Shown: positions 4,106 through 62,917 of the stretch, one piece after another | How the letters are laid out: every line of letters begins with the position of its first letter | Numbering within the stretch: position 1 is the first letter of the stretch | Assembly (NCBI GenBank): GCA_964016885.1 | Contig: OZ024754.1 | Span: forward strand, 45,322,001-45,386,000 | Direction: 5' to 3' | Source of the DNA: Eledone cirrhosa | Lineage: Eukaryota | DNA: 64,000 nucleotides | Program-made: the position numbers and the translations under genes | The notes under the pieces: model-generated | Told to the model about the DNA's origin: nothing | Database searches by the model: none | What the model saw: the letters and a program-made list of their open reading frames with translations, nothing else

Positions 4106-4246
4106 CGGATTCGATCGGGAGTAACCAGAATAAGTAAGTACTCAAGATTTTAGAGGTGTTTAAGCAACAAATTTAATATAGAAATGGATTCTACGGCACT
4201 AGAGCAGTACTAGTTCCGTAGAAGCCGTTTCTATATTAAATTTGTT
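4106..4246. mobile_element. TA-flanked foldback element, family B (putative PLE end)
   Basis: 37-bp inverted arms at 4166-4202 and 4210-4246, plus a 60-bp one-sided extension containing gtactcaa. Homologous to 18047, 43000 and 58944. Confidence 0.75.
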
Positions 4247-4263
4247 ATATATATATATATATA

Positions 4264-4575
4264 TATTATTCTAAATATTAATAAATGGATACATTCACAT
4301 AATCATAATATATGTTTTTTTATATATATTTCGGAGGTACTCTGCTGTTTTTTCAGTACGTAAATATCAGATAAAATACATAAATTGATGAAAAAAACAG
4401 CACAGTACATCCGAAATATATATAATAAAACATATATTTTGATTATGTGAATGTATCCATTTATTAATATTTTGAATAATATTAATAACTCCAGAAAAAT
4501 TTCTTGTTGAGTGCTTTTAATCTATTGTAAAACTATATTCATTGAATAATCAATGAACCTTGTTTAACATTTGGT
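4264..4575. mobile_element. TA-flanked foldback element, family C (putative PLE end)
   Basis: ~92-bp inverted arms at 4264-4355 and 4389-4481, then a ~95-bp tail containing gttgagtgct. (TA)n on both sides. cagcacagtacatccGAAA lies in the arm. Confidence 0.75.
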
Positions 4576-5577
4576 TATATATATATATATATATATGTGT
4601 GTGTGTATGTGTGTGCATGTGTGAGTATCTGCGTGTTTTTTTAGGGGTGAGTGCAATACACACATATACATATGTAAATAGACACACACATTAGTACACA
4701 CGCCCATATACATATAGACATTCTTATATATGTATATATATATACATACACACACAGGATACACACACACATATATATATCTATATATATGTATGTGTGT
4801 GTGAGTGTAGATGTGTGTGTATTCCTGCATACGTATATTATAATTGAGTGTAAGCACTATCTCTTTATGTTTTGTTATTTTTCACTGATACTGTTTCACC
4901 TCATCTCGATATAACTTAATAAAAGTTAATGGACCCTAAAGTGGGCCTTTATGAAAATGTCAGAGATATATCCAGAATGACTTTAGGATTGATATCATAA
5001 ATATCAACAGCTTTTCAGCGATGATATCCGGATGTAACTTCAACAAAACAAATGTCATATACACACGAGTTGATATGAAATATTGCTTTTTGTATTACAT
5101 TTATAAAAGTTGTTACAAATATTTCACATTTGTTTCATATTTCGTAGGATGTGCTAGAGGTTAGTTGAAACACGTAGACGTTATTTAGGTTTTGTTTTTA
5201 TTTGCTCACAATTTGCTAGTAGGAAATATTGTTTAAACTTTATACCTGTATGTGTGTCCCTCTATCGCCTTCTGTGTTTCTTCTACTCTACCCGTCTCTC
5301 TTTCTCTCTCTATACACACTCACACACACGTATATATATATGTATATATATATATATATATATATATATATATATATATATATATATATATGTATAGTAT
5401 ATTTGGCAATATAGTGTATGTTTAATTAAAAACATTTTGAAGACAATTCGCTATGAGTTTTAAAGTAGTGACTATGTCACTTATTCTCGGCAAAAATAAC
5501 GGATATATATATATATATATATATATATATATATACGTGTGTGCGTATATTTATGTATATATATATATACATATACG

Positions 5578-6310
5578 TAGAGGGATACTCGTTGGTATAT
5601 CGATTCCTTTGATTCTTTTAAATTTGCCCCTTTCATTACTAGGACTCCACACTTATTAATACCAAATTCCATACAAATGTCATTGCTGACAATAGGAACA
5701 GTATTCACAAGCATATCTAGCGCCGTCCCTTTTTCCCGAAGAGTTTTAAGTCATCCATGAAAAGGAGATGATTGATAAGTTCACCTTTTCCCAGTTAGTA
5801 TCCAGCCTTCAATCTTCGCAATGCGAGAGACAGGGGTATTAGGGTAAGGACAAACAATTGAGGTGACAGACTATCTCCTTGGAAGATGCCTCTCTTGATT
5901 TTAACTCTTCTCAAGGACCTACCGATATTATCTGTGTCTCCCAGTTTTTCCATGCTAATACATAATAGCAGTCTGATATTGTCGGCCATCTTGAATATAT
6001 CTAGACACTTGGTTATCCAGGAATGAGGAACCATGACGAATAACTTTTTGTAGTCTATCCATCACATAGCAATGTCAGTGTGTTTCCTCTTATTATCATC
6101 TTGTTGGTAAGTAACTGGTCCTTTGTACTACGTGACTTCTTTCGGCATCCTTTCTATTCTGACTGTAATAAGTTGTTTATGTGGAGGTGATGGTAAATTT
6201 CCTCAGACACAATGCATGTTAGCAGTTTCTACATCAATGACAGACATGTGATATATGCATATTTGGTAACGTCGTTACCCTTAGGCTGGTCTTTCATTAT
6301 CAGAACCGTG
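5578..6310 (-). pseudogene. R4/Dong-clade non-LTR retrotransposon reverse transcriptase fragment (frameshifted)
   Basis: Minus-strand translations TVLIMKDQPKGNDV..ITCL, GCRKKSRSTKDQLL, MVPHSWI, RGIFQGDSLSPQLFVLTLIPLS, INHLLFMDDLKL and DICMEFGINKC are RT motifs typical of the R4/Dong clade. Stops and frameshifts are present. Confidence 0.9.
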
Positions 6311-7919
6311 GTAACTTTTATTGTTATATTGACATTTACTCAGTTGGATAGTAACAGTAATTACAAGTAGTATCCTTGACCGCACTCAATGTTTTACGTG
6401 GATTGAATATTCTCTATTAAAGGTGTGGATTAATACCGACATCCGTCTGTTATTGACGTAATATGCAGAACATTTATATTAAAAAAGAAATATCGAAAGT
6501 TCATTTCAGTATATTTCATTCGTGTTAGGTTTGGAATGGTGAGGACTTCATGAGTGTGTGAGTCCGGGAAAAAATCAAATAAGATATTTCGTTTCGCTTT
6601 CCATTTCATTGGCACATTAATGCTTCATATTCATTTAAAAGGAATTTATTTTTAAATAATTAATCAAAATCGAATTCATTTAGACAATAACTGGGATAAA
6701 TTCGCATCTGCGTTATTTGTGCGTCGCCGGTAGAGAATAACAAATAGCTTGAATCAGTTTCAGATTTAACTCATTAGGTAATTGAATGAATAGTTACAAG
6801 GCTACACAAAACATAATTATATGATATGAGTGGGTCTCAACAAAGAGACAAGAGATGTTGTCATATTCTACTCGAAAATATTGACACAGTACGTCTTATA
6901 GCAATCATAGTACACTCCAGTGAAGTGGTTGCTTTTGAAAGAGTAACAGAAAACCCAACCCTTTAAATAGATATCTAGCCTAGAATGCCATATGTTGAGA
7001 TTCAGCAAAATACTTGATATGAGCGTTCAAATATATTGTCAAGCGCAGGATCTGAGTTGTTATGGTTGTAGCTTTTGTTGCTGATTGTTTTTGTTGTGTC
7101 TGTAGATGTTATTGCTGTTGTCATGCCCTACACCTACGAAAGTATTGCCTGTTTCTCGTAGTTTCGTATCTCAGAGAAAGTATACTGAGTGTCTTAAAAT
7201 TAAGTACACGTTGGAGCAATAGCATTATCAGCAGTGCAATTATCATTATGATTATATTGTTAAAGACAATCAGCATGTACGGGAAAACTATTTTCATCTT
7301 CATCACCATGACCATCACCAACAGCAGCAACATCAACAGCAGCAGCAGTAGCAGTAGTAGTGTAATCATCTTCTCTGTCTTCAACGACGTTACGTCGGTT
7401 GTTATGTCTTAACATGTTAATTACAAACCATTTCTCAAGTTCCCGAGGGATTCCAGCGTCTATTTGTTTTAGTTCATTAAATTCGTGCTCAATATTCTTG
7501 CAGTTGCAGCCTATTGAGGTTTGTTTTGTTATTTGTTCTTGTCGGCTTTCCATTGTCCAATTGTATTTCAATCTTCATTTAAAGTTTTACTGAGATCATT
7601 CATAGAAAACGTATTGCTGAGTTGTACAGCTTGCAACACCTGTCTATATATATATATATATATATATATATATAATGTGTGTGTGCGTGTGTGCATGTGT
7701 GTGTGTTTGTAGCGAATTCTCGGGATGGATTTCTTAGCCTGCCATACACGACCACCAAGTGACTACATCAGAATTAAAGCTCACAAGCTAGATAATGTAC
7801 TCTTGTACGAGGCTACAGTGCCAAAATGTCATAGAACAGGAGCAAAGACAGGCTGTGTAATGTTACCAAGGGTTTTCGACCTCCAAATAGTCTGATATTA
7901 GAATCAGCAGAAGACAGTT

Positions 7920-60576: not shown

Positions 60577-60694
60577 TATATATATATATATAGAAGGATA
60601 AAGATCCTCTTTGTGGAATCGTAAGGACACCGTCAAAAGATGCGTATAAGGCACTTTTTTGCCTGGCGAATCACAACCCTCTCCATATATATAT

Positions 60695-60850
60695 AGAATA
60701 TGCAGGTTAGGCGAAATACGCCGCGAGAAAGAGAGACACCAACACTTATCGCGGAACATATCAATGGATCTAAGCAACAGTAGAAAGATTTATTTAAACT
60801 TCAGTTGTTTCTGTTTTTTCCATTCAAATAGCTGTGGCTATCAGCGAATT
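60695..60850 (-). mobile_element. Possible further PLE-like 3' end
   Basis: Minus strand gctgatagcc...cagaaacaactgaag..aataaa..., terminating at (TA)n, in the same TA cluster as family A copy 5. Confidence 0.35.
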
Positions 60851-61616
60851 ATATATGAGAGCGACTATGAATAAACGAAGTTAATTTTCACCTGTTCAAT
60901 GTACGTCACGTTTGTATATATAAACATATAAACGTGACGTACATATATGTATATAGGTATGTATTCATATATATATATATATATATATATATATATATAT
61001 ATACACACATATATATATATATATATATATATATATATGCATAGATAGATAGGTATAGACATACGTATATTTACGTATATATATATATATATATGTATGT
61101 GTGTGTATTTAAATGTTTATTTATATATCAATATATATATATATAGAGATATTTAAATGTTTATATATATATATATTATATATATATACTATATATATAT
61201 ATATATATATATATATATATTTAAATGTTTATATATATTATATATATACTATATATATATATATATATATATATATATATTTAAATGTTTATATATATAT
61301 ATATATATATATATATATATATGTCGTTGCATCTGCGACAATTATAATGAATGCTTCGGGGAGAAGATACTTGGAAATATAATTGAGATAATAGGCTGTA
61401 GATCAACCGTTAACCCGTTAAAGGTTGATATAATGACCTTGTATTTAATCATATCCCTCCTGTCGTACAGTAATAAAGGCCAGCTGGTTACGTAAATGTA
61501 GCAGTGACATTTCATTATGTGCCACAGCCATATTTATTTTTTTTCTCCTTTTAATACGGATACATGAATAAAATCACACATACGCACATAACCAGCAGAC
61601 AGCCCCAAGAATGACG

Positions 61617-62197
61617 CACACACACAGACACACACACACACACATACACACACACACACACACACACACATATATATATATATATATATATATATATATA
61701 TATGCATGTATATGTATATATGTATATATATGCATACATATATACATATCATATATATGTGTATGTATATATATACATATATACATATGTATATATATAT
61801 ATATATGCATATATATATGTATGTATATATATATATGCATATATATACATATATATATATGTATATATATTTATATATATGCATATATTTATATATGTAT
61901 ATATATTTATATATATGCATATATTTATATATGTATATATAAATATATATATGCATATATATATATATATAATATATATATATATAATATATATATATAT
62001 ATATATATATATATATATGCATATATATATATATATATATGCATATATATATATATATGCATATATATATATATATATATATATTATTCATATATATATA
62101 TATATATATATATGCATATATATATATATATATATATGCATATATATATATATATATATATATATATATATATATGCATATATATATATTTATATAT
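61617..62197. repeat. Compound (CA)n/(TA)n microsatellite with GC interruptions
   Basis: Directly visible. Confidence 0.95.
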
Positions 62198-62727
62198 TTG
62201 TATAAGACCTAATAAGTACATCGATATGTAGGTTATATGCAATACCCACCGGCGTTCAACAATTGTCATTCCTTTTTCTCCCTCATATTGAACCTTCTCC
62301 AGTAACCCCCATAATGCATTGCGCAAACGATGTAACATAATTGCAATTTGACATTGGAACATTTTTATTCATGTAATAGTTCCACATTGGATGTCTGCAA
62401 TTATTTCCTGACTTTGCAGAATACCTCCTTGTATTTGAGTTGAGTACTTACTAGTTTGGCGAATAGAAATCGATATATGCATTAAACCTGTTTCAATGTC
62501 ATCTTTGAACATTTTGCTATGATTATTGTCACCATTTCTATCTCGTTAACATGTTGGCTTCACCGAAGTATTAAGTAAGGTATATTGTAACAACCTAATA
62601 CATAACAGAGGATATATTTTGGCTTCCTTTCTCTCTCTCTCCCTCTCTCTTTCTATCTCTCTCTCTCTCTTTCTCTCTCTCTCTCTCTCTCTCTCTCTTT
62701 ATATACATATATATATATATATATATA

Positions 62728-62917
62728 ACGAAGGAAGTGTAGTAAGGAATCATATGGACCATAACGCACCAGAGTACTCAATACTTAGGGTAGTAGGGTG
62801 GGTGATAGGAAAATGTTTAACCCCGACGGCAGAGCTCAAGCCGTTTCAACGGCTATTTATGGACTGAAATAGCCGTCGAAACGGCTTGAGCTCTGCCGTC
62901 GGGGTTAAACACTTTTC
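62728..62917. mobile_element. Family A foldback element copy 6
   Basis: 80-bp tail plus ~50-bp arms (62808-62858 and 62867-62917). Confidence 0.88.

What the first reader, a model, noticed from the sequence alone, without database searches (positions are those of the whole stretch)
4106..62917. A shared bipartite 'head-to-head, two-3'-end' architecture in at least five TA-targeting element families
Seen: families A (6 copies), B (4), C (1), D (1 plus fragments) and E (2) share almost no sequence, yet they sit in or beside (TA)n. The bipartite copies are built from two oppositely oriented pieces of one 3' region. One piece runs to a distal end and the other stops at a family-fixed point ~55-100 nt earlier (A: ttcc|ta; E: ttttaa|ta). 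The inner junction varies between copies. Overlapping pieces give hairpins of variable length, and non-overlapping pieces give none (18047, 20197). Known: Penelope-like elements carry hammerhead motifs in their pLTRs and often insert with an inverted 5'-truncated pLTR plus a tail extension. Inference: these are ultra-short PLE insertion products in which both target strands at a TA tract primed reverse transcription on the same RNA at two defined sites. If so, they are a dense record of the PLE integration mechanism, or a set of non-autonomous ribozyme mini-elements.
Basis: partly seen in the sequence, partly recalled or inferred. Interest (0 to 1): 0.75.

Follow-up and report, generated by a model that had tools for sequence, protein, structure and literature searches.

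The report
Two-armed stumps of Penelope retrotransposons
The hairpin-and-tail repeats in TA runs are short pieces of Penelope-like jumping genes that carry one fixed end on each side, likely made by copying the element's RNA from two start points at once, and in two families most arms stop at what is likely the capped start of that RNA; the general layout is already known.

Summary
The architecture is real. In 70 of 73 head-to-head pairs sampled from this genome, one arm ends at a fixed proximal site and the other at a fixed distal site 55-90 nt further on. Inner junctions vary (37 forms in 52). Parents were found: A and E are contiguous with Hydra-clade Penelope-like (PLE) ORFs, including an intact 718-aa copy for A; C and probably B are also Hydra-type; D abuts a Neptune/Nematis-type GIY-YIG. 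No DDE transposase or Helitron parent appeared. The inverted truncated arm, one-sided tail, (TA)n targeting and two RT start sites are published (PMC8557442, PMC11167929), and this scan noted the system and the one-of-each rule on other DNA of this genome. The ribozyme mini-element reading is not supported. What my searches did not find in print: in A and B about 70% of arms stop within 15 nt of a TATA/Inr-like site, and an untemplated G is enriched there. This suggests strong-stop-like cDNAs of the capped 5' end of the mRNA. No RNA data were available to test it. Corrections: A 34966 and E 59336 are single-armed.

The parts
4106..4245 (.). Family B insertion: tail-bearing arm on minus, proximal arm on plus; hairpin 4166-4246; diverged
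4266..4575 (.). Family C insertion: proximal arm on minus (to 4389), distal arm with about 90-nt tail on plus (from 4392); 84-89% to the pLTR of Hydra-type parent L281; hammerhead core decayed
9574..9751 (.). Family A insertion, diverged subfamily: distal arm on minus (to about 9701), proximal arm on plus ending ttcc|ta
13231..13364 (.). Family A insertion; both arms end near +28 and join at the palindrome TGAGCTCA
18047..18174 (.). Family B insertion with non-overlapping arms (tail only on minus, proximal piece on plus); no hairpin
19972..20156 (.). Family A insertion, young subfamily, 95% to intact parent L142: proximal arm +5..+58 on minus, distal arm +7..+138 on plus
20197..20287 (.). Family E insertion with non-overlapping arms (+132..+163 on minus, +5..+72 on plus)
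21213..21684 (.). Family D insertion: distal arm on minus (to 21410), proximal arm on plus from 21411, starting just upstream of a YY1-like motif (motif recalled); parent has a Neptune/Nematis-type GIY-YIG
26514..26590 (+). Old fragment related to family D
34966..35101 (+). Family A single arm (+48..+138) preceded by about 45 nt of unassigned sequence; not bipartite
42989..43131 (.). Old family B hairpin, tail decayed
58938..59150 (.). Family B insertion: proximal arm on minus, distal arm on plus
59336..59891 (+). Family E single 5'-truncated copy with tail, 89-95% to the 3' UTR/pLTR of parents L248 and L251; hammerhead-like motif with a U4-to-A core change at 59736
59920..59958 (+). Short proximal-end fragment related to family D
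60402..60576 (.). Family A insertion, old subfamily
62727..62917 (.). Family A insertion: distal arm on minus reaching about -6, proximal arm on plus from +7

Best explanation
These repeats are short pieces of at least five Penelope-like retrotransposon families, joined head to head in (TA)n runs with one proximal and one distal end, likely made when the element's enzyme cuts both strands and starts reverse transcription at two fixed sites on its RNA. Shown: each unit is the pLTR end (promoter-like site, hammerhead or its relic, tail) of a long element with an RT and GIY-YIG-type ORF, and in A and E it lies directly in front of that ORF; the outer ends are the same two sites at which long copies end; junctions differ between copies; the two arms of a copy share source variants. 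Inferred: (1) one RNP, possibly a dimer, primes once at each site, which explains the one-of-each rule; (2) the two cDNAs are joined bluntly, through 1-4 nt of microhomology, or with filler; (3) when priming uses the 5' UTR copy of the sites, the cDNA runs off the capped 5' end of the mRNA after at most about 60 and 140 nt, giving the ultra-short class that dominates A and B; priming on read-through 3' pLTR RNA gives longer, randomly truncated arms. Steps 1-2 about 0.85; step 3 about 0.6.
For: Parents: L142 has TA - inverted copy with tail - truncated copy - intact 718-aa ORF - pLTR ending at the proximal site - TA; its model (pLDDT 93) matches RT folds, with telomerase among the best ranks. 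E: unit-ORF-unit in L251, ORF-unit in L248. C: same-strand ORF end upstream in 9 of 30 loci. D: contiguous with a GIY-YIG above the Pfam cutoff. Two 3' ends in long copies: A 14 proximal, 4 distal, 2 unclear of 20; B 13, 13 and 4 other of 30; C 16, 13 and 1 other of 30. One-of-each pairing: A 24/24, B 22/23, C 1/1, D 10/11, E 13/14. Junctions: 37 distinct of 52. Rare variants shared between arms: 78 against 7.7 expected, 156 not shared, 97 hairpins. Barrier: A 34 of 48 arm ends within -3..+12 and B 34 of 46 within -1..+12 of an Inr-like site with a TATA-like box 27-31 nt upstream (motifs recalled). Untemplated G before +1: 20 against 7 mirror-image cases in the first 50 of 64 junctions, CG 6 against GC 0 (my tally, one-sided sign test about 0.01); G on both arms in 6 of 50 junctions. 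ORF pieces joined directly to +1/+2 in L077, L085 and L090 look like template jumps at an RNA 5' end. Published support: PMC11167929, PMC8557442.
Against: The barrier is a hotspot, not a wall: 12,869 family-A arms keep the genomic TTT before +1, and 70 of 100 arm ends have T there, mostly running a few nt past +1. Six arms ending at +1 join the partner arm with no G. The pile-up is weak in E (9 of 28) and D (6 of 22) and untestable in C (1 pair); 18 of 44 single E arms and 16 of 51 single D arms are long. The same site also reads as a splice acceptor (AG|T) in A, B and E. Pair detection misses long-armed insertions, which inflates the short class. B is tied to a Hydra ORF only by head-to-head adjacency in three loci (L242, L245, L250). 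Pfam gave no hit for the family A protein; its endonuclease rests on motifs. Shared variants could also come from conversion within a hairpin.
Confidence: 0.8

Rival explanations
1. PLE products as above, but the inner hotspot is not the RNA's 5' end: the RT stalls at a structure or bound protein near the hammerhead stem I, or the site is a splice acceptor or a microhomology hotspot on longer read-through RNA.
For: Many arms pass +1 by a few nt or by hundreds; the parent reads TTCTAATTTAG|T with a possible GC donor about 170 nt upstream; D. virilis Penelope has an intron ending at its hammerhead (PMC4209133).
Against: No constant upstream exon is joined at the site in the listed junctions; G is enriched over its mirror control; A and B differ in sequence yet pile up at the same place relative to TATA/Inr-like motifs.
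Confidence: 0.3
2. The hairpins arise by fold-back self-priming, as proposed for head-to-head PLE palindromes on an antisense template (PMC3846280), so that one arm is a DNA copy of the other.
For: Arms share rare variants ten times more often than expected; some junctions are palindromes (13231; several).
Against: Pairs whose arms overlap by under 10 nt (A 3 of 24, B 5 of 23, D 1 of 11, E 6 of 14) cannot be fold-backs unless later deleted; 19 of 52 junctions hold filler or mismatches between two separate arm ends; both outer ends are sites where long copies also end.
Confidence: 0.1
3. They are pre-formed non-autonomous elements (MITE-like or retrozyme-like) that are copied as whole hairpin-plus-tail units.
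For: 25 of the 30 best matches to copy 19972 share its exact junction at 97-100% identity; intact hammerhead motifs occur in relatives of B, C and D.
Against: That set was selected by the query: the same 3-nt spacer is 2 of 52 in position-ordered matches. Asymmetric ends and no terminal-inverted-repeat transposase parent. No pile-up at ribozyme cut sites (A about +39, B about +49). A lacks CUGANGA in the parent.
Confidence: 0.05

Closest known systems
Hydra clade of C-terminal EN+ Penelope-like elements, including Hydra-1_Obim (Craig et al. 2021, PMC8557442; section 11, passages and supplement parts seen)
   Same: Single ORF with RWx, DKT, CxCX5C linker, C-terminal GIY-YIG-type EN without CCHH, CxxC and CxH motifs; (TA)n insertion; hammerhead of the CUGANGA-N-stem-U-GAAA type at the 3' end.
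   Different: New families; element A is 3.1-3.3 kb with clear pLTRs and RWR for RWK; tails of 60-90 nt rather than 30-40; hammerhead relic in A and U4-to-A core in E; more than 14,000 ultra-short hairpin insertions for A alone. Hydra-1_Obim was compared by eye only.
Internal two-site RT initiation in Poseidon_Ac (Frangieh et al. 2024, PMC11167929; parts 1-2 of 4 read)
   Same: Two RT start sites whose interval is the tail; both target strands cut and extended; AT-rich target; ribozyme cleavage not needed.
   Different: In the parts read it does not report that each insertion takes exactly one end of each kind, nor cDNAs ending at the mRNA cap. Its sites lie inside the ORF; here they lie in the 5' UTR.
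PLE inverted 5'-truncated pLTR with one-sided tail (Arkhipova et al. 2013, PMC3846280; passages)
   Same: Head-to-head inverted pLTR, tail on one side, TATA and Inr-like motifs in the pLTR, microhomology junctions.
   Different: Explained there by self-priming on an antisense template; non-overlapping pairs here fit twin priming better.
Dual opposite-strand minimal hammerheads of truncated PLEs (Cervera and De la Pena 2014, PMC4209133; parts 1-2 of 4 read)
   Same: Thousands of short hammerhead-bearing PLE remnants, some as opposite-strand pairs 100-700 bp apart.
   Different: No breakpoint mapping in the parts read.
L1 twin priming and retroviral minus-strand strong-stop DNA (recalled, no call)
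   Same: Inversion from priming on both target strands; a short cDNA running from an internal priming site to the RNA cap.
   Different: Here both sites are fixed, the arms usually overlap, and the short cDNA is itself integrated.

Membership tests
EN+ Penelope-like elements | Single ORF with telomerase-related RT | tested here: met
   L142 ORF of 718 aa, YRDD invariant in 118 homologues; model matches RTs, TERT ranks 2, 4, 5, 6; Pfam and PDB sequence searches gave no hit
EN+ Penelope-like elements | C-terminal GIY-YIG endonuclease | tested here: met
   D: PF01541, E 6.8e-5, above cutoff. A and E: VIY..YIG, R, H, E, N motifs conserved, but no Pfam hit for A
EN+ Penelope-like elements | pLTRs, partial tandems, inverted 5'-truncated copy, one-sided tail | tested here: met
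   L142, L251, 20 long A copies
EN+ Penelope-like elements | Hammerhead motif in the pLTR | tested here: inconclusive
   Canonical in relatives of B, C and D; variant core in E; CUGANGA absent in A; cleavage not testable
Hydra clade (A, E; C and B by partial ORFs) | RWK motif and DKT for DKG | tested here: met
   A: RWR and DKT; E: RWR and DKT; homologues 72% K
Hydra clade (A, E; C and B by partial ORFs) | CxCX5C linker, no CCHH, CxxC and CxH around conserved E and N | tested here: met
   A and E proteins; B-linked ORF shows CxCX5C
Hydra clade (A, E; C and B by partial ORFs) | Insertion into (TA)n | tested here: met
Hydra clade (A, E; C and B by partial ORFs) | Placement inside the clade on an RT tree with reference PLEs | not tested
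   Reference proteins were seen only in the paper's supplement
Neptune/Nematis clades (D) | CX2-5CxxC linker plus CCHH in a C-terminal EN | tested here: met
   CIDKKCIIC and C..C..H..H pattern in L041, L250, L116
Neptune/Nematis clades (D) | RT domain and clade placement | not tested
   No full-length D copy was fetched
MITE (DNA transposon derivative) | Fixed internal structure between symmetric terminal inverted repeats | tested here: not met
   37 junction forms in 52; asymmetric ends
Non-LTR retrozymes | Non-coding tandem monomers bounded by intact hammerheads | tested here: not met
   Single head-to-head units traced to coding parents; one descriptor hit in the window, a variant core

The most novel reading that the evidence does not exclude
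PLEs routinely make and integrate strong-stop cDNA: one RNP primes in cis at two 5' UTR sites of its own mRNA, copies both to the cap (often adding the cap's G), and joins them head to head. Full-length copies would then need read-through RNA or a template jump from the cap to the RNA's 3' part, which would build the 3' pLTR much as retroviral strand transfer builds an LTR. The tens of thousands of junctions would map start sites and priming sites of every family without RNA data.
Probability: 0.4. Interest if true: 0.65.

Novelty: new member of a known kind. Interest (0 to 1): 0.4.

Why it matters
How PLEs, the closest transposon relatives of telomerase, form inverted ends and pLTRs is still open (PMC8557442 and PMC11167929 both say so). 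A near-obligate one-proximal-one-distal rule across two PLE clades constrains the model to paired priming, and an intact young element (L142) plus more than 14,000 junctions make it testable. Practically, these repeats should be annotated as PLE pieces, not MITEs or miRNA-like hairpins. The architecture itself is ordinary for PLEs.

Tried and rejected
Rfam scan of the window: the 150 listed of 426 matches were below gathering score, nearly all microsatellite-driven miRNA hits, and none was a hammerhead. Tail-only genome search returned nothing because common words are skipped. Apparent fixed junction: a selection artefact. Idea that family A has a full hammerhead made by splicing: 8 CTGA.GA hits all sit at junctions of short copies or chimeras, and none of the 20 long copies has the core next to the unit; rejected, though the A/T match between core and subfamily in those 8 is unexplained. 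First guess that A is Neptune: dropped after motif comparison with PMC8557442. Pfam and PDB sequence searches for the A protein were empty. PF26215 is not in the library. No RNA holder listed. Laying DNA contigs on 19300-21800 gave no piece that spans an insertion, so empty alleles were not testable. Units do not fold better than shuffles (z 1.06 and 0.56). Regex for the D hammerhead found 0 (too tight) and the descriptor missed C and one B subfamily. Literature searches for strong-stop, twin priming, cap-derived G or cephalopod Hydra hairpins in PLEs found no such report; the library lacks most subscription papers and Repbase/Dfam could not be searched. The tail hairpins reported in earlier scan notes were not tested.
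Full report
Observation. Self-comparison and reading of the window recover the five families. 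Twelve of 14 copies are two oppositely oriented pieces of one unit; A 34966 and E 59336 are single arms. The window lies in a 3.0-Gb animal assembly; the organism was not determined. An exact pattern for the family A hairpin centre occurs 14,610 times, with 0 for the reversed control.

Are the junctions fixed? The 30 best matches to copy 19972 mostly share its junction (25 of 30), but that set is selected by the query. Among 52 junctions in loci fetched by position, 37 spacers are distinct; 17 are blunt, 16 overlap by 1-4 nt and 19 hold filler or mismatches. A pre-formed MITE is rejected.

Parents. A hammerhead-type pattern led to locus L075, where the A tail runs into an ORF. That ORF start gave 1,046 candidates. 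Twenty long copies of about 3.1-3.3 kb carry the A unit in front of the ORF and again at the 3' end; 14 end at or just short of the proximal site, 4 at the distal site, 2 are unclear. L142 is intact: TA, an inverted copy with tail, a truncated direct copy, a 718-aa ORF, and a pLTR ending at the proximal site. Its outer ends are the same two sites as in the short copies. The protein has 2,218 homologues among 7,998 candidates scored; its model matches RT structures including telomerase. Motifs RWR, DKT, CxCX5C, CxxC, CxH and no CCHH match the Hydra clade of PMC8557442 (section 11), which inserts in (TA)n and includes an octopus family (supplement). E is contiguous with a related ORF, 53% identical over 428 aa. 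C has a Hydra-type ORF end upstream on the same strand in 9 of 30 loci. B is joined head to head to one Hydra-type ORF family in three loci, without a contiguous copy. D is contiguous with a C-terminal GIY-YIG that has the Neptune/Nematis zinc motifs. The layout thus spans two PLE lineages.

Outer ends. In 1.56 Mb of fetched DNA, leaving out duplicate loci and loci picked by each family's own query, pairs combine one proximal and one distal end in A 24 of 24, B 22 of 23, C 1 of 1, E 13 of 14 and D 10 of 11 (D re-read by eye). Unpaired arms (A 30, B 23, C 13, D 51, E 47) include long-armed and diverged copies and are outside this count. Arms of one copy differ by 1.7 of 45 nt against 4.7 between copies and share rare variants 78 times against 7.7 expected (97 hairpins, including query-picked loci). 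Pairs with arms that overlap by under 10 nt (A 3, B 5, D 1, E 6) argue against fold-back self-priming (PMC3846280, passages).

Inner ends. Arm ends cluster: A 34 of 48 within -3..+12 and B 34 of 46 within -1..+12 of an Inr-like site (TTAGTC, ACAGTC) with a TATA-like box 27-31 nt upstream (motifs recalled). E is weaker (9 of 28), D has 6 of 22 near a YY1-like motif, C cannot be judged. There is no cluster at the ribozyme cut sites. Where both A arms reach +1 with a 2-nt spacer, the base before +1 is G 33, T 31, A 22, C 14 in the first 50 of 64 junctions, although the parent has T; G-type spacers outnumber their mirror images 20 to 7 (my tally and hand-computed sign test, about 0.01). With 3-16-nt spacers the first 50 of 3,097 give T 70, G 17, C 11, A 2, with G on both arms in 6 (my tally). 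An extra G from copying the cap is recalled from other retroelements; my one search for a source returned nothing. Against a strict wall: 12,869 arms keep the genomic TTT, and the site also reads as a splice acceptor. No RNA holder was listed, so the start site is predicted only.

Ribozymes. B, C and D relatives have canonical type I hammerhead motifs, with stem I variants that keep pairing in B; E has a U4-to-A core; A keeps only the second half. In the window the descriptor found one hit (E 59736). The short copies are therefore not a set of working ribozyme elements.

What is known. The inverted truncated copy, one-sided tail and (TA)n preference are described (PMC8557442). Two RT start sites that define the tail, extension of both strands, and independence from ribozyme cleavage were shown in vitro (PMC11167929, parts 1-2). 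Opposite-strand hammerhead pairs from truncated PLEs are noted in PMC4209133 (parts 1-2). The D. virilis transcript starts within the pLTR (PMC2377424, passages). For bioRxiv 10.64898/2026.07.22.740005 I saw the abstract and outline only. Earlier notes of this scan describe the same system and the one-of-each rule on other pieces of this genome; none of the 16 notes shown mentions a stop at the transcript start. Searches found no paper on that point, within a library that lacks most subscription journals.

Verdict. Real, well explained, mostly known: new Hydra-clade and Neptune/Nematis-type PLE families with unusually many short two-armed insertions. The pairing rule is strong; the cap-stop reading is moderately supported and testable. 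Interest 0.4.

Noticed in passing
window 8300-8545: A further (TA)n-associated family with a decayed hammerhead motif; intact core in relatives L109 and L111; 24 matches in fetched loci.
   Followed up: partly
window 9766-9972, 30719-30915, 33957-34157, 36068-36303, 40726-40915, 51249-51455, 63623-63807 and fragments: Abundant 200-nt repeat with a B-box-like motif, probably a tRNA-derived SINE with a Nin-type domain (label recalled).
   Followed up: no
window 10170-10627: Old 460-nt imperfect palindrome not flanked by TA; two relatives at about 82% in L042; possibly a true MITE.
   Followed up: partly
window 11266-12211: Tandem array of a 23-nt unit, about 41 copies.
   Followed up: no
window 41085-41852: Trinucleotide-repeat tract giving open low-complexity frames on both strands.
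   Followed up: no
L077, L085, L090, L124: Family A copies in which an internal ORF piece is joined directly to the start of the pLTR unit; candidates for template jumps at the RNA 5' end.
   Followed up: partly
L145 4523-5168: Three tandem copies of a 257-nt piece made of the A unit plus the ORF start; may be repeated template jumps or circular-template copying.
   Followed up: no
L069-L076: Eight junctions recreate a CUGANGA core before the A unit; CTGAAGA occurs only with one subfamily (5) and CTGATGA only with the other (3); unexplained.
   Followed up: partly
L190, L193, L246, L242: B-linked 3' regions appear to contain long TG/TA microsatellites and start at a recurrent site, hinting at a non-coding B subfamily or a microsatellite-bearing UTR.
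   Followed up: no
many fetched loci, e.g. L031, L118, L143, L156, L174: Further Hydra-type ORFs at 30-50% identity to family A, so the clade is diverse and abundant in this genome.
   Followed up: no
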